A stretch of 64,000 nucleotides of DNA from a virus (Duplodnaviria; Caudoviricetes), in IMG/VR virus record IMGVR_UViG_3300026549_000054, positions 32,001 to 96,000 of that record. One strand, written 5' to 3'. The notes beneath the pieces are model-generated. The model did no database searches, had not been told where the DNA came from, and saw only the letters and a program-made list of their open reading frames with translations. Position 1 is the first letter of the stretch. Each line of letters opens with the position of its first letter. Both the position numbers and the translations under genes were made by a program. Below are positions 48,785 through 55,166 of the stretch, piece after piece.

Positions 48785-49226
48785 ATTTTCTATAAAGGAG
48801 AATTAAATCTTTTTGGGCAACCGGGAAGTTTGAAACTTCAGCCTATTTAGGAACACTAGAACTGAAGTTTTTGATTCTTTTTGGTATAACGTATGAAGAA
48901 TCACTTCTGTGGGATTTACGAATAAGCTTATGGGTCGGTCTTCCTGTACTCCAGCTACATCTTATTCAACCAAGGCGGCTATGTGTTAAACTTGCGAAGT
49001 TTAACTACGATGTTAGATTTTCAATGATAGTTTACTCAGTCTTCAAACCTTTTAACCTATCCAAGTGTGTAACTAACTTTTACACATATTGGCTATCCCT
49101 CTACCGATAGTGGCATTGAATTGTACTTCGTTCCGAGGAAATAGACTTTCAAATGTCAATAGCCAAATATAGTAATTATTACTTTATGTGTAAAAAATTT
49201 TAAAAATTTTTGATCTGCAGAATTAG

Positions 49227-49298
49227 AGCCCTATACCAGATTCGGACTGGTGCCACCTGCTTGGAAGGCAGAAATGCTAACCACTACACCAATAGGAC
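49227..49298 (-). tRNA. tRNA-Gly(TCC)
   Basis: loop CTTCCAA; U73. Confidence 0.9.
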
Positions 49299-49302
49299 AG
49301 TA

Positions 49303-49378
49303 TCTCCCCTACTGGAGTCGTACCAGTGTTATTTTTCGGTGTAAACGAAGTGCCATAAACCATCTAGGCGAAGGGGAG
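49303..49378 (-). tRNA. tRNA-Val(TAC)
   Basis: loop TTTACAC; A73. Confidence 0.82.
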
Positions 49379-49382
49379 TTAG

Positions 49383-49451
49383 TTGCAGGTATGGGTGCCG
49401 ACACCACTGCCACAAAGATATGAGCTTCGTGTGTATGCCGATACCCCTGCA
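49383..49451 (-). tRNA. degenerate tRNA-Met(CAT)
   Basis: CGAAG-CTCATAT-CTTTG; reduced D arm and aberrant T arm. Confidence 0.5.
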
Positions 49452-49455
49452 ATAG

Positions 49456-49526
49456 TTGTTCGTGCTGGAATCGGACCAACATTAAGTGATTCAGAGTCAC
49501 CTGTACTACCGTTATACTAACGAACA
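49456..49526 (-). tRNA. tRNA-Gln(CTG)
   Basis: GGTGA-CTCTGAA-TCACT. Confidence 0.9.
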
Positions 49527-49534
49527 ATAATTTA

Positions 49535-49606
49535 TCCCAATGCCGGAGAACGATTCCGAACTACAAGTGCCACAAACTTGTGTGCTACCAATTACACCAC
49601 ATCAGG
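49535..49606 (-). tRNA. tRNA-His(GTG), atypical T loop
   Basis: CAAGT-TTGTGGC-ACTTG; no obvious G-1:C73. Confidence 0.7.
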
Positions 49607-49616
49607 GATGAAGTAG

Positions 49617-49689
49617 TGCTCCATCAAGGACTCGGACCTTGGACTCGCTGATTAAGAGTCAGCTACTCTACCAACTGAGTTAATGGAGC
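49617..49689 (-). tRNA. tRNA-Lys(CTT)
   Basis: GCTGA-CTCTTAA-TCAGC. Confidence 0.92.
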
Positions 49690-50316
49690 ATTAGTAATAA
49701 AATCTATAATTTTTTCAACATATTTTTGTTTTTCTTCTAATGATAATTTTTGGTATTCGGCCCAATTACATCTACCAATTAAAGTCCATCCTTCACTTGA
49801 TAAATTTTGAGTTCTTTTATTATCATATAGTTTTCCTTCTTCTGTATAATGTGTCCTTCCATCTACTTCAAAATATATTTTCTTTTCAGGCCAAGCAAAA
49901 TCTAACCAATAAGGTTTAACATAATAATTATTTTCAAAATTTATATTTTTGTTTGTAAAAATGTTAAACCAACTTTGTTCTGCATAACTTCTTTGTCTTC
50001 GCCCTATCCAAGAACTTGCTCTACCTTCTTTGTGTGCTTTTATCATTCCTTTTGATATATTTTTTCTTCCTTGCTCAGACATAATATATTTTTTATATGG
50101 TATTTTATTTGGATTTAATTCACAATGTTTTTCGTGATTAATCATTGTTGATTTTGTTGTATATTTTGAAAAACCACAAAATTTACAAGATAAATTATAT
50201 TTTGGTTGTTGTCCTCCATTATTTAATATATTATGAACTTTTATTTTATGACTGTATAATTCTTTCTTATCATCAAAGATTTCTTTACATATTTTACATT
50301 TATATTTTAATTTCAT
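49663..50316 (-). CDS. Zn-finger plus DUF559/Vsr-like endonuclease
   Basis: two C2H2/C2HC-like fingers; YWLDFAW..EVDGRTH; the ORF ends inside tRNA-Lys. Confidence 0.75.
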   Translation of the reverse strand: MKLKYKCKICKEIFDDKKELYSHKIKVHNILNNGGQQPKYNLSCKFCGFSKYTTKSTMINHEKHCELNPNKIPYKKYIMSEQGRKNISKGMIKAHKEGRASSWIGRRQRSYAEQSWFNIFTNKNINFENNYYVKPYWLDFAWPEKKIYFEVDGRTHYTEEGKLYDNKRTQNLSSEGWTLIGRCNWAEYQKLSLEEKQKYVEKIIDFITNAPLTQLVE

Positions 50317-50331
50317 ATTTTTATTTATTTA

Positions 50332-50405
50332 AGCACACTGAGGGATTTGAACCCCCGAATCGCGGAGTTGCAGTCCGCTGCATTACCAGGCTTTGCTAAG
50401 TGTGC
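50332..50405 (-). tRNA. tRNA-Cys(GCA)
   Basis: GCGGA-CTGCAAC-TCCGC; U73. Confidence 0.92.
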
Positions 50406-50465
50406 GAATTGATTACTGTGGAAATTTATTTAAATGGCGACGTATCCTCCACCACAGTAATCTTA

Positions 50466-50539
50466 AGTGGCTACTGGGATTTGAACCCAGGTAACCTGTT
50501 TGGTAAACAGGCTCATTAACCAGACTATGATATAGCCAC
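50466..50539 (-). tRNA. tRNA-Gly(ACC), A34
   Basis: CCTGT-TTACCAA-ACAGG; U73. Confidence 0.85.
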
Positions 50540-50548
50540 ATTTGTTCG

Positions 50549-50623
50549 TACATCTGATAGGAGTTGAACCTATATCACATCGGCGTTCGTAGCACCGGAC
50601 TCTTCCAATTAAGCTACAGATGC
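50549..50623 (-). tRNA. tRNA-Arg(ACG)
   Basis: CGGTG-CTACGAA-CGCCG. Confidence 0.88.
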
Positions 50624-50629
50624 ATTTAG

Positions 50630-50716
50630 AGGAGGTAGAAGGATTTGAACCCTCGTGTGATTTCTCACCCACTGTTTTCAGGACAGGTCCGATAAGCCAG
50701 GCTCCGGCATACCTCC
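50630..50716 (-). tRNA. tRNA-Ser(TGA)
   Basis: loop CCTGAAA; long variable arm. Confidence 0.88.
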
Positions 50717-50720
50717 ATAA

Positions 50721-50794
50721 TCGCCCAGGTGGGACTCGAACCCACAAAATTCTGCTTCTAAGGCAGACACGTATACCAGTTCCATCACCGGGCG
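50721..50794 (-). tRNA. tRNA-Leu(TAG) with short variable loop
   Basis: TCTGC-CTTAGAA-GCAGA; variable loop ATTTT; A73. Confidence 0.88.
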
Positions 50795-50808
50795 TTAATT
50801 TGTTTTAA

Positions 50809-50879
50809 CAGAAGTACCAGGACTCGGACCCAGACGAACAGACTTGGAAACTGCCATGCTACCGTTACATCATACTCCT
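50809..50879 (-). tRNA. tRNA-Trp(CCA)
   Basis: loop TTCCAAG; G73. Confidence 0.88.
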
Positions 50880-50885
50880 ATTTAG

Positions 50886-50959
50886 CGACATCGGCGGGAT
50901 TCGGACCCGCGAATGATGGTTAGACAGACCACTGTGTTAGACCACTTCACCACGATGCC
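50886..50959 (-). tRNA. tRNA-Asp(GTC)
   Basis: loop CTGTCTA; G73. Confidence 0.9.
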
Positions 50960-50965
50960 ATATAG

Positions 50966-51040
50966 TCCATAGGGATGGATTTGAACCATCAGTCTCCACC
51001 TTATCAGAGTGGCAAACGGAACCAGTCGTTATGCCTATGG
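50966..51040 (-). tRNA. tRNA-Ile(GAT)
   Basis: CCACT-CTGATAA-GGTGG. Confidence 0.85.
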
Positions 51041-51052
51041 ATAATTTGTTAG

Positions 51053-51125
51053 TGCCGCCCTCCCGTAACGATCGGGAATCTCAGGATTTTCAGTCCCGCG
51101 CATAGACCATCTTTGCTAGAGCGGC
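51053..51125 (-). tRNA. tRNA-Phe(GAA)
   Basis: CGGGA-CTGAAAA-TCCTG; variant T loop. Confidence 0.85.
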
Positions 51126-51129
51126 ATAG

Positions 51130-51203
51130 TGGATACATACGGGATTCGGACCCGTGACCTCTTCAGTGCTAATGAAGCGCTCTTCCAACTGAGCTAATGA
51201 CCC
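51130..51203 (-). tRNA. tRNA-Ala(AGC), A34
   Basis: CTTCA-TTAGCAC-TGAAG; G3:U70. Confidence 0.85.
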
Positions 51204-51212
51204 AAAAGTTTA

Positions 51213-51287
51213 TGGACACATAAGGGATTTGAACCCTTGACATCCTGCGTGCAAGGCAGGCGTTCTACCAAACTGAACTAATGGCCC
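51213..51287 (-). tRNA. tRNA-Ala(TGC)
   Basis: CCTGC-CTTGCAC-GCAGG; G3:U70. Confidence 0.9.
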
Positions 51288-51294
51288 GTTTTCG

Positions 51295-51366
51295 TAGTAC
51301 ATTCGGGAGTCGGACCCGAGTTTCCGCCTTGAAAGGGCAGCGAACTAACCACTATTCTAATGTACC
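51295..51366 (-). tRNA. tRNA-Glu(TTC)
   Basis: CTGCC-CTTTCAA-GGCGG. Confidence 0.88.
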
Positions 51367-51373
51367 ATATTCG

Positions 51374-51447
51374 TAGTGCTATCCGGATTTGAACCGGAGT
51401 TTTAAGAGTGAAATTCTTATGTCCTAACCAAACTAGACGATAGCACC
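51374..51447 (-). tRNA. tRNA-Glu(TTC)
   Basis: TAAGA-ATTTCAC-TCTTA. Confidence 0.88.
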
Positions 51448-51449
51448 AT

Positions 51450-51535
51450 AAAAGAAAAATCCCGTGGTTTGTGTTCCACAGGATTTAATTTGTTACGCCG
51501 GAAAATTATAACTAATCAAATGCCTGTGTAGAACC
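51450..51535 (-). promoter_or_regulatory. attenuator (terminator/antiterminator) directly upstream of tRNA cluster 2
   Basis: terminator AAATCCTGTGG-AACACAAA-CCACGGGATTT-TTCTTTT; leader segment GTTCTACACAGGCATTT can pair with AAATCCTGTGGAAC. Confidence 0.82.
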
Positions 51536-51625
51536 TCTATCTTCGCCTGCGACTGCACCTTCAAATCGTTCGTCAATGGCGAACCAATCCTGTGCGAGGC
51601 AAATGTGGGACTTAAGCATCATCAT
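51512..51625 (-). CDS. 37-aa leader peptide of tRNA cluster 2
   Basis: MMMLKSHICLAQDWFAIDERFEGAVAGEDRGSTQAFD*; AAGGA RBS; codons match cluster-2 anticodons. Confidence 0.8.
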   Translation of the reverse strand: MMMLKSHICLAQDWFAIDERFEGAVAGEDRGSTQAFD

Positions 51626-51753
51626 AATTTCTTTTTTCCTTATATTGTATATATAACTTTTAATTTCTGTTTTTTGATTCTTTTGTTAAACACATCCAAA
51701 ATAATTGTTATTGGTTTTTCAACCGCTACACAATCATTTTGTTTACATAGACA

Positions 51754-51782
51754 AATATAGTATTTAATTTTATATTTGTCAA
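51754..51782 (-). promoter_or_regulatory. sigma70-type promoter upstream of the leader and tRNA cluster 2
   Basis: TTGACA-17 nt-TATATT. Confidence 0.75.
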
Positions 51783-51819
51783 TGGGTAAATGTAATAATT
51801 TTGATTTTTTTGATCTTCG

Positions 51820-52287
51820 TTATTTAAAGTCTTTTGCAAATTTAGCTTCTTTGATATACTCCTGCATAAGTTTTGAGGCTTCGCTTACTTCCATCCATTT
51901 GCCAAATTTAGTAACCAACTTCTGTAACTGTTCAAAAGTCAAATTCTTACATTTTGATTCAAATTCACTCTGTATATTCCACCAATCGGGAACATTCTTT
52001 GTTCCGGTACTGGAGTAGGCAGGCGTGTAATAAAAACTGTATCTAGTATTATTCTTAACTGTTCCAATTTTTATACTTGCGTCATATCCATATCCATTGT
52101 AACCAGATGAAAAAGTGATTTTACATTCAATTCTCGGTTTGCTTTGTAGATTGCCTATAATGTCAAAGCAATCAAACTGCCCACCGAATTTTAATGTTGC
52201 TAGTTTATCAACTGCTACTTTAATGTTTTCAGCATTAGTAATAGCTGTGTTGCATAAATGTTTTATTCTTTCTTCTGCGTAACTCAT
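51820..52287 (-). CDS. DF-tail family protein
   Basis: ends KEAKFAKDFK*. Confidence 0.7.
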   Translation of the reverse strand: MSYAEERIKHLCNTAITNAENIKVAVDKLATLKFGGQFDCFDIIGNLQSKPRIECKITFSSGYNGYGYDASIKIGTVKNNTRYSFYYTPAYSSTGTKNVPDWWNIQSEFESKCKNLTFEQLQKLVTKFGKWMEVSEASKLMQEYIKEAKFAKDFK

Positions 52288-52355: not shown

Positions 52356-53771
52356 CTATTCTTCAATGGAGAAGAGCTGTTCGGTAGTGAGATGGTACAA
52401 GCACCAATCCGGGATGTAACTCTCAGTACCTGGCGTGGAAATCATAAAGATTTTCTTGAAGAAATGTTCAGGCTTCGGGAAATCAAATCCCATATCAGTG
52501 AAATAGATGATACCATCAAATTTCGCCTTTCTTTCCTTAATTGCTTCAAGAACGCATTCAGGGTTCGTGCATCCGCGACCAATCAGCTTGAAGTCGGACT
52601 TCTTCTGCTTCTGTTCGGTGAATGGACCGCAAACACCATCCCAGAAACAATAGGACACATCAGCGTGTTTTACGAACTTGTTCACAATCGCACAACCACG
52701 TTCCACGTCCTTATCGTCCATAGAGCCGGAGCAGTCAATCGCCACCAAAATGCGAGAACGGAATTTGTGCTTCTTACCAGGAACATCAAATCCCTTTCTG
52801 CGATCTGGTCGCATACGGGTATCTTCAGTGTACTTATCCACTGTGTTCGCCTTGAATCTCTTCAGGACTGTCTTCGGGTCAAATTTTGGAGTATTGGCAG
52901 CAAGAATTGCCTGGAGCAAACCACCACTAATGTTACCCCACTGAGAAGCATTTTCTGCAATGTGGTGAGTGATTTCCTGGATTTCCTGGTCTACCAGAGT
53001 ATTTTCTTCCCAACCTTCCGTAGCCTTTTCAGCTGCGTCCTGGGAGCCATCAAAATACTCATCCAATGCGTCCTTCGTCGGGTTTCCGCTTCCGCCCTTA
53101 CCCTGTTGGTTTCCCTTGCCCTGGCCCTGTCCATTACCTTGTCCCTGACCCTGACCTTGTCCCTGACCCTGTCCGCCACCACCTTGCTTTTCAGCGCAAT
53201 CCATCAACATAGAGAACACCTTTTCAAGGAACCAGTGGTCTTCTTCATTGAACTTGATTTTGGCGGTTTCTTGACGGAATTTTGCCTTGTTCGGAAATTC
53301 CTGGAGCATCTGCATAACTTCTTGCTTGTGAGTATTCAACACAGAACGCTGATTTTCGTCAAACGAGATATAGTCAGATGCCTTCTTGAAAATCTGGAGC
53401 GGGTAGCATTTACGAGTAGTGATGTGGTGCAAAGCAATTCGCAAACATTCACTAAACATAATGTAAGCCAAAATGGAACATTCCTGAATCTTGTTCAACC
53501 AAATCGGGTTATATTCCATATTGATAGCACTACCAGTGCCACGGCAATTCAAGCGGAGAGTGACCTGCGGGTCCTTGACCGGCTTTAAATCACACAAACC
53601 AAAGTATGTGAGAACCGCCGGCTCAAATTGCATCAACTTCACCGCGGAAGTGATGAGCTGTTCGGACTTGGAATTACATTCATCCCACAGTTCCATATAT
53701 TTCTTATTATCTTCTTTATAAAGCTGGGCGAGTTCGTCCTTGGGAAGATTTGAAATTTGAATTAGAGCCAT
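52356..53771 (-). CDS. DUF2201-type metallopeptidase-like/vWA protein
   Basis: MIDAS DCSGS, GRGCT and IYFTD motifs; GQ-repeat linker. Confidence 0.85.
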   Translation of the reverse strand: MALIQISNLPKDELAQLYKEDNKKYMELWDECNSKSEQLITSAVKLMQFEPAVLTYFGLCDLKPVKDPQVTLRLNCRGTGSAINMEYNPIWLNKIQECSILAYIMFSECLRIALHHITTRKCYPLQIFKKASDYISFDENQRSVLNTHKQEVMQMLQEFPNKAKFRQETAKIKFNEEDHWFLEKVFSMLMDCAEKQGGGGQGQGQGQGQGQGNGQGQGKGNQQGKGGSGNPTKDALDEYFDGSQDAAEKATEGWEENTLVDQEIQEITHHIAENASQWGNISGGLLQAILAANTPKFDPKTVLKRFKANTVDKYTEDTRMRPDRRKGFDVPGKKHKFRSRILVAIDCSGSMDDKDVERGCAIVNKFVKHADVSYCFWDGVCGPFTEQKQKKSDFKLIGRGCTNPECVLEAIKERKAKFDGIIYFTDMGFDFPKPEHFFKKIFMISTPGTESYIPDWCLYHLTTEQLFSIEE

Positions 53772-53814
53772 AAATTTGTACCTCTTAAATTAGTTTTCGT
53801 TTTTCGTATAGTCT

Positions 53815-53870
53815 AATATAGTAAATTGTGAGACGTATGTCAATCCAAATTGGGTAAAATAAAATTTACA
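53815..53870 (-). promoter_or_regulatory. sigma70-type promoter with box
   Basis: TTGACA-17 nt-TATATT; GGTAAA-N6-TTTACA 9 nt upstream of -35. Confidence 0.75.
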
Positions 53871-53960
53871 AAGAAAAAAGGTGGTTTTCCCATTTAGTTG
53901 AGAAAACCACCCTCAACCACCAATAAGGAAATTTGGGCATTATACCCAAAACGAATTAGA

Positions 53961-55166
53961 TTACTTAAATTCGTTCTGGATACGGACAATGCTAGTATAG
54001 AGAGCGTTCAGTGCGTTCACTTCCATACCATTTTCGTCCTTGACGCGGATTGGGCAGCTCTTACCGACCAACTTCGTCCACTTCTGCTTCTTTTCACGTG
54101 CCGTTTCCACAGCGTTCGTGTACACTTCCACCTGGATTTCCTTGGCGAGATGGGTGAGGAAGTAGTAGTAGTTAGTTGCGTACTTCTTGCCGAGTTCGGT
54201 CGGAGAATCAGGAGTTCCCATCTTGGATTCCTGTTCGTGGAGATACTGGCACACAGACTGTCCGAGCTGTACCGCCTCAATCTTGGACTTCTTGCAGAGC
54301 TTTTCTACCTTGGAGCCAAATTCCTTTTCAAAGTCCTTGGACTCCATAAGAGCCTTAGCATCCATACCGGTACCATGCTGAGCATAGTAGGTCTTGAACT
54401 TGGCCGCTATAGCCTGACCAACATAACCGGCGCAGGATTCCTGGAGAATACCGAGACCCTTGTTGCCTTCAAACAAACCCTTTTCTGTTGCCATATCAAG
54501 GAAGTTTGCGAAATGAACCCAGGTACGGCGGGATGGGAGAATACCATCAAAGCTCTTACCGGCCGTCTTGCTAGCCTGGGCGTTGGAGTATGGGTCAAGG
54601 TCACCGGAGTACTGGGAGATATAACCCGTGACAACGCGGTTCACACCTGCTTCAGTTGCCCAGTCAAGCCATTCCTGGACAGTCGGAGTGAAATTGTACA
54701 CAACGAAACGGTCCATCTTTGCCGGGTCAAATTCTTCAACGTCATAATTGCCGTCGTCACCCGGATTGATAGCACAAATGACGTGAGAGCCAGGAGCAAG
54801 CTTGAAGTTCAAAATCTTGTGGTCAAGGCCCAGCTGCATCATAGCATTCGTTACGAGAGTAGTACCACGGTTGATTTCATCCAGGAACAAAGTCACTGGG
54901 AGCGGGTTGCCGTGTTCGTCCTTCTTATACCAATATGGCGGAACGAATTCGGTTTCACCAGTTTCGGAATTGATGCGAGGAAGACCAATAAGGTCACCGA
55001 CATCGGAAATCTGGGAGGCCTGGAATTCAATACAGTCCTGGTGCCAAACATTCTTTGCAAGCCAGCGAATGACTTCGGTCTTACCGATACCGTGCGGACC
55101 CTTCAACATCACGGTGTGAGAGTTAGGAGTTGCTGCGAGAACCATCTTGAGAGTCTGAATATCCAT
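53961..55166 (-). CDS. MoxR-type AAA+ ATPase
   Basis: GPHGIGKT, LFLDEINRG, DPAKMDRF and PSRRTW motifs. Confidence 0.9.
   Translation of the reverse strand: MDIQTLKMVLAATPNSHTVMLKGPHGIGKTEVIRWLAKNVWHQDCIEFQASQISDVGDLIGLPRINSETGETEFVPPYWYKKDEHGNPLPVTLFLDEINRGTTLVTNAMMQLGLDHKILNFKLAPGSHVICAINPGDDGNYDVEEFDPAKMDRFVVYNFTPTVQEWLDWATEAGVNRVVTGYISQYSGDLDPYSNAQASKTAGKSFDGILPSRRTWVHFANFLDMATEKGLFEGNKGLGILQESCAGYVGQAIAAKFKTYYAQHGTGMDAKALMESKDFEKEFGSKVEKLCKKSKIEAVQLGQSVCQYLHEQESKMGTPDSPTELGKKYATNYYYFLTHLAKEIQVEVYTNAVETAREKKQKWTKLVGKSCPIRVKDENGMEVNALNALYTSIVRIQNEFK

What the first reader, a model, noticed from the sequence alone, without database searches (positions are those of the whole stretch)
51447..51656. 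Codon-matched leader-peptide attenuator controlling tRNA cluster 2
Seen: an unannotated 37-codon ORF (51625-51512, AAGGA RBS, MMMLKSHICLAQDWFAIDERFEGAVAGEDRGSTQAFD) is followed by an intrinsic terminator (AAATCCTGTGG/CCACGGGATTT plus U tract) that ends 2-3 nt before the first tRNA. The last leader codons (GTTCTACACAGGCATTT) can pair with the terminator 5' arm (AAATCCTGTGGAAC), forming an antiterminator. The peptide contains all 16 amino acids served by the downstream array (E,A,F,I,D,W,L,S,R,G,C,K,H,Q,M,V) and lacks N, P and Y, whose tRNAs lie only in the other cluster. Codons track the isoacceptors: AAG for Lys(CTT), CAG for Gln(CTG), CTY for Leu(TAG), CGA for Arg(ACG), GGY for Gly(ACC), GCC/GCA for Ala(AGC/TGC). 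The two exceptions (AGA, ACA) sit at or in the antiterminator segment. Known: this is the logic of his/trp-type attenuation. Inference: a ribosome stalled on any depleted codon permits read-through, so the phage makes tRNAs on demand, for example after host anticodon-nuclease defence or starvation. I am not aware of a described multi-codon attenuator on a phage tRNA array.
Basis: partly seen in the sequence, partly recalled or inferred. Interest (0 to 1): 0.96.

Follow-up and report, generated by a model that had tools for sequence, protein, structure and literature searches.

The report
Switchable terminator gating phage tRNA genes
A rumen phage puts a tiny reading frame and a switchable stop signal in front of 18 tRNA genes, and the conserved part of the tiny peptide resembles the tryptophan-sensing TnaC leader of E. 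coli, so it looks like a translation-operated switch for tRNA production and not a codon-by-codon mirror of the tRNA set.

Summary
The anatomy is real. On the minus strand lie a strong promoter, a roughly 295-nt leader, a 37-codon ORF, and an 11-bp intrinsic terminator that ends 2-3 nt before the first of 18 tRNAs. The terminator's 5' arm is also the 3' arm of a larger antiterminator hairpin (P=0.0005 against shuffles). None of six other terminators in the window shows this. In four relatives the antiterminator is the more stable fold. Modelled ribosomes at or before codon 26 leave it free; ribosomes at codon 33 or at the stop force the terminator. I rate a ribosome-operated attenuator as likely (about 0.6).

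The codon-matched part is weak:
- Synonymous codon choice follows the anticodons only if U34 tRNAs read all four codons.
- Of 23 peptide forms, 22 carry Pro, 12 lack Val and 6 lack Trp.
- One relative lost tRNA-Phe and tRNA-Val but kept those codons.
- Still, codons 4-26 of this copy hold exactly the 15 array amino acids (P about 1e-6 to 1e-5, chosen after the fact).

New here: the conserved peptide core matches the TnaC leader (Pfam E 0.006, below cut-off; hhalign E 4e-6), with Trp, Phe, Ile and Asp in register but without TnaC's Pro24-stop.

The scan has made the attenuator claim before on other phage DNA. I found no paper describing it.

The parts
51754..51782 (-). Promoter, TTGACA-17-TATATT.
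   Evidence: 11 of 12 match. It is one of 10 identical-consensus sites on this strand. The hexamers are conserved in relatives while the spacer varies.
51626..51747 (-). 5' untranslated leader, with a long hairpin at about 51741-51697.
   Evidence: Fold. It differs by 0-3% among four relatives. The N-terminal extension of peptide form P0002 suggests a shorter 5' UTR in that copy (inference, DNA not seen).
51637..51641 (-). Shine-Dalgarno-like AAGGA, 11 nt before the first of three tandem ATGs.
   Evidence: the phage's genes use AGGA/GAGG motifs, mostly 5-9 nt upstream.
51512..51625 (-). Leader ORF: 37 codons plus TAG.
   Evidence: 23 distinct peptide forms are known in relatives. Third codon positions are as conserved as the rest.
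51566..51607 (-). TnaC-like core of the peptide (residues 7-20, HIC-x4-WF-x-ID-ER).
   Evidence: Pfam PF08053: E 0.0064, 16.8 bits, cut-off 25. 14 of 20 family members hit it. hhalign E 3.8e-6; BLASTP E 2e-6. No shuffle of 20,000 reaches the observed score.
51473..51535 (-). Antiterminator hairpin. The 5' arm is codons 31-37, the stop codon and the spacer. The 3' arm includes the terminator's 5' arm.
   Evidence: (P=0.0005).
51448..51486 (-). Intrinsic terminator: 11-bp stem, 8-nt loop, U tract. It ends 2-3 nt before tRNA-Glu.
   Evidence: -15.3 kcal/mol. The stems are invariant and the loop varies in relatives.
49226..51447 (-). tRNA array 2: 18 called tRNAs for 15 amino acids, one endonuclease-like ORF (49663-50316) and one uncalled tRNA-like element (49379-49454).
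   Evidence: No strong promoter match (at most 9 of 12) lies on this strand between the terminator and the last tRNA.

Best explanation
This is a ribosome-operated transcription attenuator that gates tRNA array 2 of an uncultured rumen phage.

Proposed mechanism:
1. Transcripts start at the promoter at 51782-51754 and carry a 35-37 codon leader ORF.
2. The last seven codons, the stop codon and the spacer form the 5' arm of an antiterminator hairpin. Its 3' arm is the 5' arm of a strong intrinsic terminator that abuts tRNA-Glu.
3. If the leading ribosome runs to the end of the ORF, it covers the antiterminator arm. The terminator then forms and the array stays off.
4. If the ribosome is held at or before about codon 26, or is absent, the antiterminator forms first and RNA polymerase reads into the 18 tRNA genes.

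What holds the ribosome is most likely the nascent peptide itself. Its conserved core (HIC-x4-WF-x-ID) matches the ligand-binding helix of the tryptophan-sensing arrest peptide TnaC, counted from the third ATG. I therefore favour a programmed stall, possibly ligand-dependent (free L-tryptophan or a related aromatic compound), over stalls at a collection of hungry codons.

Shown: the sequence anatomy, the competing folds, and the similarity to TnaC.
Inferred: that the ORF is translated, that a stall occurs and where, the ligand, and the direction of regulation.
For: - The terminator is canonical and there is no strong promoter between it and the array, so the array needs read-through.
- Adding the terminator's 5' arm and loop to the upstream 73 nt gains -15.0 kcal/mol, against -5.2 +/- 2.4 in 2000 dinucleotide shuffles (P=0.0005). 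Six other predicted terminators gain -2.2 to -8.6, far less than their own stability.
- In the local region the antiterminator state beats the terminator state by 1.0 kcal/mol in the window and by 5.1-6.7 in L002, L007, L009 and L010. RNAalifold on six copies returns the antiterminator.
- With a modelled ribosome P site at codon 26, the free RNA folds into the antiterminator (-17.5 in the window, -22.1 in relatives). With the P site at codon 33 or 37, only the terminator forms.
- The common CCA at codon 33 adds a base pair to the antiterminator that the window's ACA lacks.
- The leader diverges by 0-3%, while third codon positions of the two flanking genes diverge by 3-24%.
- TnaC likeness:
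  - The only Pfam hit is Tna_leader, E 0.0064; 14 of 20 forms hit it.
  - It is the only match in a six-frame search of the phage record, E 0.002.
  - hhalign probability is 87%, E 3.8e-6, aligning leader M3-F21 with TnaC M1-I19.
  - The Smith-Waterman score is 48, against a maximum of 39 in 20,000 shuffles and in 2,719 other open frames.
- TnaC residues Trp12, Ile15 and Asp16 form the tryptophan pocket and Phe13 must be aromatic (passages of PMC8429421). The aligned leader residues are W, I, D and F. I, D, E, R and F are invariant in 20 aligned forms.
Against: - No expression or 3'-end data exist. The one RNA run laid gave only assembled contigs.
- All DNA copies are more than 95% alike here, so 0 of 57 predicted pairs show compensatory change.
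- The Pfam score is below the curated cut-off (16.8 against 25).
- TnaC's critical Pro24-stop is absent. The aligned residue is Ala, and the nearest Pro is 19 residues after Trp instead of 12. Ile19 is Phe.
- Trp, strictly required in TnaC, is Cys or Leu in 6 of 23 forms.
- Three forms have a 2-codon deletion between the core and the presumed stall site.
- Three of 23 forms (45 and 59 aa) end beyond the antiterminator arm, which would change or abolish the logic.
- The SD spacing is long.
- The peptide forms were found through predicted proteins, so copies with a broken ORF could not be seen.
- In the window's own copy the full-length minimum-energy fold has the terminator.
Confidence: 0.42

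Rival explanations
1. One reading: a codon-matched multi-tRNA sensor. The leader samples one or more codons for every tRNA of array 2. A stall at any codon whose tRNA is depleted (starvation, anticodon nucleases) gives read-through, so the phage makes tRNAs on demand.
For: - The same switch geometry as in the best explanation applies.
- The peptide covers all 15 array amino acids with one off-array residue (P 5e-5 to 4e-4).
- Codons 4-26, the stretch where a stall leaves the antiterminator free, hold exactly the 15 array amino acids and nothing else. P is 1e-6 to 1.3e-5, with the stretch chosen after the fold.
- AAG and CAG are exact cognates of Lys(CTT) and Gln(CTG).
- L002 has Phe instead of the only Val and lacks tRNA-Val.
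- L010 changes CTT to CTA, the Leu(TAG) cognate.
- The match is 32 of 34 (P=0.005-0.025) if U34 tRNAs read all four codons.
Against: - There is no signal under standard wobble or for exact cognates (P=0.31 and 0.47). All five Leu, Ser and Val codons are Y-ending, the class normally left to G34 tRNAs (recalled rule).
- Only 10 of 23 forms keep full coverage. 12 lack Val, 6 lack Trp, 22 have Pro, 4 have Tyr and 2 have Asn.
- L008 lost tRNA-Phe by deletion, and tRNA-Val to an endonuclease gene insertion that leaves 14 nt. It keeps three Phe codons and the Val codon.
- There are no runs of regulatory codons; nine amino acids appear once.
- The TnaC-like core already supplies the rare H, C and W, which drive the low coverage probability (my rough estimate, given the core: about 4e-4, not computed in a call).
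- The Val covariation is a single event with roughly a 5% chance expectation (my estimate).
Confidence: 0.15
2. A generic coupling gauge. The ORF is translated, but there is no special stall signal. The switch simply reports how closely ribosomes follow RNA polymerase: tight coupling terminates, lagging or absent ribosomes antiterminate. The array would then rise whenever translation capacity falls.
For: - The antiterminator is the default fold of naked RNA in relatives.
- A ribosome near the stop is needed for the terminator to form.
- A precedent for tRNA arrays induced by translational stress exists in Anabaena, through a repressor, not an attenuator (abstracts of PMC8421152 and PMC10272220).
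Against: - It does not explain why 15 residues are invariant and 7 more nearly so in 20 aligned forms (nearly all within the first 27 residues) while residues 28-32 vary freely.
- It does not explain the TnaC similarity.
Confidence: 0.13
3. An RNA switch worked by a trans factor (a protein, a small molecule or an RNA). The ORF is incidental, and the conservation is at the RNA level only.
For: - Third codon positions are as conserved as first and second (0-1 of 37 differ, against 3-24% in the flanking genes).
- The PQAFD and PQHLIS forms could differ by a 1-nt shift (inference, DNA not seen). The frame would then not be kept beyond codon 34 while the nucleotides are.
- The 5' UTR is equally conserved.
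Against: - No Rfam family, T-box included, matches 51450-51750 at E<=1.
- The stop codon sits inside the antiterminator arm in 17-20 of 23 forms.
- The frame from Met to Pro33 is open in all 23 forms despite a divergent 6-residue linker, though with ascertainment bias.
- The TnaC-like peptide similarity would have to be chance (E 0.006 across Pfam).
Confidence: 0.13
4. No regulation. This is a small gene, or a leftover, with an ordinary and somewhat leaky terminator or 3' stabiliser hairpin. tRNAs are made by constitutive read-through and released by RNase P. The alternative hairpin is fortuitous.
For: - A distant relative (L005; its match to the neighbouring 471-aa protein is 50% identical) has a promoter, a 50-aa basic ORF and tRNA-Leu with no terminator.
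- Array 1 of this phage has promoters and no terminator.
- There is no covariation.
Against: - The alternative hairpin is an outlier (P=0.0005) and unique among seven terminators.
- The leader is much more conserved than neighbouring synonymous sites.
- A -15 kcal/mol terminator with a 9-of-10 U tract directly before 18 tRNA genes, with no strong promoter behind it, is hard to explain as a constitutive design.
Confidence: 0.12

Closest known systems
Leader-peptide attenuators of amino-acid operons (trpL, hisL; multivalent thrL and ilvGMEDA). Textbook knowledge, recalled.
   Same: A short translated leader and an intrinsic terminator whose 5' arm can instead pair upstream. Ribosome position decides which fold forms. 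A ribosome at the stop codon masks the antiterminator arm.
   Different: The regulated genes are tRNAs of a phage, not biosynthetic enzymes. There are no runs of regulatory codons. There is no clear 1:2 hairpin, so naked RNA antiterminates in relatives. The conserved peptide sequence suggests the peptide itself matters.
TnaC, the tryptophan-sensing arrest peptide of the tna operon (Pfam PF08053; E. coli K-12 tnaC read; mechanism from passages of PMC8429421).
   Same: HIC-x4-WF-x-ID lies at the same distance from a Met. The Trp, Phe, Ile and Asp that build the ligand pocket are aligned. It is a leader peptide that controls transcription read-through.
   Different: The score is below Pfam's cut-off. 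There is no Pro24-stop; the aligned residue is Ala and Pro lies 7 residues further on. Ile19 is Phe. Thirteen extra residues follow. An intrinsic terminator and antiterminator replace Rho and a rut site. tRNA genes lie downstream instead of tnaA. Trp is not kept in 6 of 23 forms.
Arrest-peptide attenuators with intrinsic terminators in antibiotic-resistance leaders (for example the msrD leader; seen only as a search listing and abstract start for bioRxiv 10.1101/2021.11.29.470318; the rest recalled).
   Same: A ligand-dependent nascent-peptide stall upstream of an antiterminator/terminator pair.
   Different: Those sense ribosome-bound antibiotics and control resistance genes. They have no sequence similarity to this leader.
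Inducible long tRNA array (trn operon) of Anabaena PCC 7120 (abstracts of PMC8421152 and PMC10272220).
   Same: A supernumerary tRNA array that is kept off and switched on when translation is impaired.
   Different: Control there is by the RHH repressor TrcR at the promoter, not by a leader or terminator. It is bacterial, not phage.

Membership tests
Leader-peptide (trp/his-type) transcription attenuator | A short ORF with a start codon and ribosome-binding site in the leader. | tested here: met
   A 37-codon ORF with AAGGA 11 nt upstream. The spacing is at the long end.
Leader-peptide (trp/his-type) transcription attenuator | An intrinsic terminator between the leader ORF and the regulated genes. 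| tested here: met
   11-bp stem, U tract, -15.3 kcal/mol, 2-3 nt before tRNA-Glu.
Leader-peptide (trp/his-type) transcription attenuator | A mutually exclusive antiterminator that uses the terminator's 5' arm. | tested here: met
   Gain of -15.0 kcal/mol, P=0.0005. Unique among 7 terminators. Favoured in relatives.
Leader-peptide (trp/his-type) transcription attenuator | A ribosome at the end of the ORF masks the antiterminator; a ribosome stalled upstream frees it. | tested here: met
   Constraint folds with modelled footprints. In silico only.
Leader-peptide (trp/his-type) transcription attenuator | Clustered regulatory codons for the controlled amino acid(s). | tested here: not met
   No runs. 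Nine of 15 amino acids occur once in codons 4-26.
Leader-peptide (trp/his-type) transcription attenuator | Read-through depends on leader translation and on charged tRNA. | not testable with these tools
   The phage is uncultured, and only assembled contigs of RNA runs were available.
TnaC / Tna_leader (PF08053) | Score at or above Pfam's gathering cut-off. | tested here: not met
   16.8 bits against 25. E 0.0064. 14 of 20 forms hit at E<=1.
TnaC / Tna_leader (PF08053) | Trp12 and Asp16 (with Phe13 and Ile15) in register. | tested here: met
   Alignment of leader M3-F21 with TnaC M1-I19. Trp is replaced in 6 of 23 forms.
TnaC / Tna_leader (PF08053) | Ile19, and Pro24 followed by a stop, 12 residues after Trp. 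| tested here: not met
   Phe at the Ile19 position and Ala at the Pro24 position. Pro lies 19 residues after Trp.
TnaC / Tna_leader (PF08053) | It sits before tnaA and acts through Rho-dependent termination. | tested here: not met
   An intrinsic terminator and tRNA genes lie downstream.
TnaC / Tna_leader (PF08053) | Tryptophan-dependent ribosome stalling. | not testable with these tools
   Needs toeprinting or in vitro translation.
T-box riboswitch | A match to the Rfam T-box model (specifier and T-box antiterminator bulge). | tested here: not met
   No Rfam hit in 51450-51750 at E<=1.

The most novel reading that the evidence does not exclude
A rumen jumbo phage carries a TnaC-derived nascent-peptide sensor. 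It has been rewired from Rho-dependent control of tryptophanase to an intrinsic terminator/antiterminator switch, and it uses it to switch on 18 of its own tRNA genes. The signal would be free tryptophan (or a related aromatic compound), or any decoding hold-up within the first 26 codons. This would be the first arrest-peptide or attenuation control of tRNA genes, and the first TnaC-like sensor outside tna operons.
Probability: 0.28. Interest if true: 0.85.

Novelty: new variant of a known kind. Interest (0 to 1): 0.68.

Why it matters
Phage tRNA arrays are usually discussed as constitutive codon-usage or anti-defence cargo. A translation-operated switch in front of one would mean the phage meters its tRNA supply according to the state of the host's translation apparatus or amino-acid pool.

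Leader-peptide attenuation and arrest peptides are known for enzymes, transporters and resistance genes. My four literature searches found no report of either in front of tRNA genes.

The TnaC-like core gives a concrete experiment: toeprinting with and without tryptophan, plus point mutants. It also offers an alternative explanation for similar 'codon-mirror' claims that this scan has made on other phages.

Tried and rejected
RELATIVES AND DATABASE SEARCHES
- The leader and the neighbouring 155-aa protein have no match in the phage collection. The 471-aa protein finds only 27%-identical Aeromonas phage stretches.
- IMG/VR holds one other contig with this leader.
- Species genomes hold none.
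- PHROGs has no family for the leader peptide.
- T-box or any other Rfam family in the leader: none.

RNA EVIDENCE
- I laid one RNA run (X6) and three DNA runs (X7, X10, X12) on 49100-51900. All are assembled contigs, so they give no starts, ends or levels.
- One X6 contig covers 51883-51450 and stops at the end of the U tract, and another covers 51464-51288.
- A DNA run (X12) also breaks near there, and the X6 contig starts upstream of the promoter. I draw nothing from this.
- The runs did show CCA at codon 33 and the 2-nt shorter terminator loop in other samples.

OTHER CHECKS
- Array 1 (leader 41990-41835) has two promoters and no terminator-like site, so there is no second cassette in this window.
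- L005 has a promoter and a 50-aa basic ORF directly before tRNA-Leu, without a terminator.
- Covariation support for either hairpin: none is possible, because the copies are too alike.
- Whether variation avoids amino acids that occur only once: by eye, 3 of 9 singleton positions vary against 6 of 14 others. There is no difference.
- I could not fetch DNA for the 17 peptide forms known only as proteins, so array content against leader content could not be tabulated beyond the window, L002, L007, L008 and the partial L009 and L010.
- Supplements of papers were not opened.
Full report
CONTEXT

The window is bases 32001-96000 of a 104,766-nt IMG/VR virus record that CheckV rates as 31% complete. 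GC content is 34% and nearly all genes lie on the minus strand. Sequencing runs that hold the stretch are mostly bovine gut metagenomes. ARAGORN finds 31 tRNAs in two clusters. The finding lies immediately upstream of the second cluster.

ANATOMY (minus strand)

- A TTGACA-17-TATATT promoter lies at 51782-51754 (11 of 12). It is one of ten sites with exactly this consensus on this strand. In relatives the hexamers are kept while the spacer changes.
- About 120 nt of 5' UTR follow, containing a long hairpin.
- AAGGA lies 11 nt before three tandem ATGs. The phage's genes mostly space such motifs 5-9 nt from the start.
- The 37-codon ORF runs 51625-51512.
- After a 25-nt spacer comes an 11-bp, 8-nt-loop hairpin followed by TTCTTTT (-15.3 kcal/mol).
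- tRNA-Glu starts 2-3 nt later, at 51447.
- No promoter match better than 9 of 12 lies on this strand between the terminator and the array's end, so the tRNAs depend on read-through.

THE ANTITERMINATOR

Its 5' arm is codons 31-37, the TAG and the spacer. Its 3' arm contains the terminator's 5' arm.
- Adding the terminator's 5' arm and loop to the 73 nt upstream lowers the energy by 15.0 kcal/mol. In 2000 dinucleotide shuffles of the upstream part the gain is 5.2 +/- 2.4 (P=0.0005).
- For six other predicted terminators in the window the same measure is 2.2-8.6 kcal/mol, well below their own stability.
- In the local region the antiterminator state is more stable than the terminator state by 1.0 kcal/mol in the window and by 5.1-6.7 in L002, L007, L009 and L010. 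RNAalifold on six copies returns the antiterminator.
- The difference comes from codon 33. The window alone has ACA. The five other DNA copies and all four runs laid have CCA, which adds a base pair.
- With a modelled ribosome whose P site is at codon 26, the free RNA folds into the antiterminator. With the P site at codon 33 or 37, only the terminator can form.
- This is the geometry of a ribosome-operated attenuator. All of it is in silico, and no pair shows compensatory change because the copies are too alike (0 of 57 pairs).

RELATIVES

- One IMG/VR contig (L002/L003/L006) and four metagenome contigs (L007-L010) carry the same cassette.
- Pairwise among the window, L003, L007 and L008, the leader differs by 0-3%, while third codon positions of the two upstream genes differ by 3-24%. 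Third positions of the leader ORF differ at 0-1 of 37 sites.
- The stretch is therefore constrained at the nucleotide level. That fits an RNA switch, or a requirement for particular codons, and does not fit an ordinary small protein gene.
- A profile-free search of 1.8 billion proteins and a word-based search of 5.8 billion gave further peptide forms. Together with the loci there are 23 distinct forms.
- In 20 aligned forms, K5, S6, H7, I8, C9, A11, Q12, I17, D18, E19, R20, F21, E22 and A26 are invariant. Residues 28-32 vary freely, yet the distance to Pro33 is kept.
- Seventeen forms (35-39 aa) end inside the antiterminator's 5' arm. Three 33-aa forms end right after Pro33, though at least one may be cut by a contig end. 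Three forms (45 and 59 aa) run on to the terminator or through it.
- These forms were found as predicted proteins, so copies without an open frame would have been missed.

THE CODON-MATCH CLAIM

For it:
- The window peptide contains all 15 amino acids served by the 18 called tRNAs and one off-array residue. Under five null models P is 5e-5 to 4e-4, whereas having 17 distinct residues is ordinary.
- Codons 4-26, the stretch in which a stall would free the antiterminator, contain exactly those 15 amino acids and nothing else (P 1e-6 to 1.3e-5). I chose that stretch after seeing the fold.
- L002 has Phe in place of the only Val, and its array cleanly lacks tRNA-Val.

Against it:
- Given the peptide, synonymous choice does not follow the anticodons under standard wobble (27 of 34 against 25.8 expected, P=0.31) or for exact cognates (17 of 34, P=0.47). 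It does only if U34 tRNAs are allowed all four codons (32 of 34, P=0.005-0.025).
- All five Leu, Ser and Val codons end in C or U, although the array tRNAs carry U34.
- The sixteenth amino acid (Met) rests on a 76-nt tRNA-like element that neither ARAGORN nor Rfam calls.
- Only 10 of 23 forms keep full coverage. 12 lack Val, 6 lack Trp, 22 have Pro, 4 have Tyr and 2 have Asn.
- In L008, tRNA-Phe is deleted, and tRNA-Val is replaced, apart from its first 14 nt, by a 247-aa endonuclease-like ORF. The leader still has three Phe codons and the Val codon.

THE TnaC LIKENESS

- A routine Pfam scan gave one hit for the leader peptide: Tna_leader (PF08053), E 0.0064, 16.8 bits, below the 25-bit cut-off. 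Residues 7-20 match profile positions 5-18.
- It is the only family hit by any of the 20 forms scanned, and 14 of them hit it.
- In a six-frame search of the phage record it is the only match (E 0.002).
- I read tnaC from E. coli K-12. hhalign of the 20-form alignment against it gives 87% probability, E 3.8e-6, with leader M3-F21 aligned to TnaC M1-I19. BLASTP gives E 2e-6.
- The Smith-Waterman score of 48 is reached by none of 20,000 shuffles of the leader (maximum 39) and by no other of 2,720 open frames of the record.
- According to passages of PMC8429421, TnaC stalling needs Trp12, Asp16, Ile19 and Pro24. The bound tryptophan sits between the rRNA pair A752:U2609 and Trp12, Ile15 and Asp16. 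Phe13 must be aromatic.
- Counted from the third ATG, the leader has W12, F13, I15 and D16 in the same places, but Phe at 19 and Ala at 24. Its only Pro lies 19 residues after Trp, and Trp is replaced in 6 of 23 forms.
- So it is TnaC-like, not a member of the family. The similarity explains why the peptide's first 22 residues are conserved. It also supplies the rare His, Cys and Trp that make the coverage statistic look so extreme.
- A stall at the position equivalent to TnaC's (P site at codon 26) would leave the antiterminator free.

VERDICT

I put about 0.6 on ribosome-operated attenuation in any form.
- Within that I favour a stall programmed by the TnaC-like nascent peptide (0.42 for the whole statement). 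A codon-matched tRNA sensor gets 0.15 and a plain coupling gauge 0.13.
- A trans-factor RNA switch gets 0.13, and an unregulated small gene with a leaky terminator 0.12.

NOVELTY AND EARLIER NOTES

- Four searches for attenuation or leader peptides before tRNA genes or phage tRNAs found nothing relevant.
- The nearest printed case of inducible tRNA arrays is the Anabaena trn operon, controlled by a repressor (abstracts).
- Arrest-peptide attenuators with intrinsic terminators are known for resistance genes (listing only).
- The scan's own notes show that the attenuator-before-tRNA-array claim has been made and followed up on other phages. I did not test those notes and do not count them as support.

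LIMITS

- RNA runs were available only as contigs.
- Supplements of papers were not opened.

Noticed in passing
window 48907-49011 (-); also L007 7004-7108 and L008 6124-6228: A full-length match to the Rfam orphan motif cow-rumen-2 RNA (RF02947; 105-109 bits, cut-off 66) lies about 215 nt downstream of tRNA array 2 in the window and at the same relative place in both relatives. This places the motif in a phage, next to a tRNA array.
   Followed up: partly
window 49379-49454 (-); conserved in L002 and L008: A 76-nt element between tRNA-Gln and tRNA-Val folds stably (-27 kcal/mol, z -3.2). It has an acceptor-like closing stem and a 7-nt loop reading CUCAUAU (CAU). Neither ARAGORN nor Rfam calls it a tRNA. 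It may be an aberrant Met/Ile-type tRNA or a tRNA-derived RNA.
   Followed up: partly
window, minus strand: 51782, 48405, 46831, 45657, 44020, 42211, 42026, 38793, 35455, 33105; L005 10320 and 12506: There is a family of promoters with the exact consensus TTGACA-17-TATATT. It is also present in a relative whose neighbouring 471-aa protein is only 50% identical. In the leader promoter the hexamers are conserved while the spacer is a hot spot (5 of 29 differences against L003).
   Followed up: partly
window 49663-50316 (-); L008 4038-4868 and 5132-5875; L010 960-1697: Endonuclease-like ORFs (DUF559 plus a C2H2 zinc finger) sit between tRNAs at different places in different relatives. In L008 one replaces all but 14 nt of tRNA-Val. 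tRNA-Phe (L008) and tRNA-Val (L002) are cleanly missing. The arrays are in rapid flux.
   Followed up: partly
L005 10320-10564: In the distant relative, a promoter and a 50-aa very basic ORF end 5 nt before tRNA-Leu(TAA), with no terminator. This is a different kind of mini-ORF in front of a tRNA block.
   Followed up: partly
window 52356-55166 (-): A 471-aa protein with DUF2201 metallopeptidase-like and VWA-like domains carries a GQ-repeat insert. It lies next to a 401-aa AAA_5 (MoxR-like) ATPase, just upstream of the tRNA region. Its only phage database relatives are in Aeromonas phages (27% identity).
   Followed up: no
window 51587-51595 (-), codons 11-13 of the leader: A second copy of CACAGGAUU inside the ORF can also pair with the terminator's 5' arm (-15.1 kcal/mol duplex; P=0.01 against shuffles). 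The synonymous GCA>GCC change removes it in L002, L009 and L010.
   Followed up: partly
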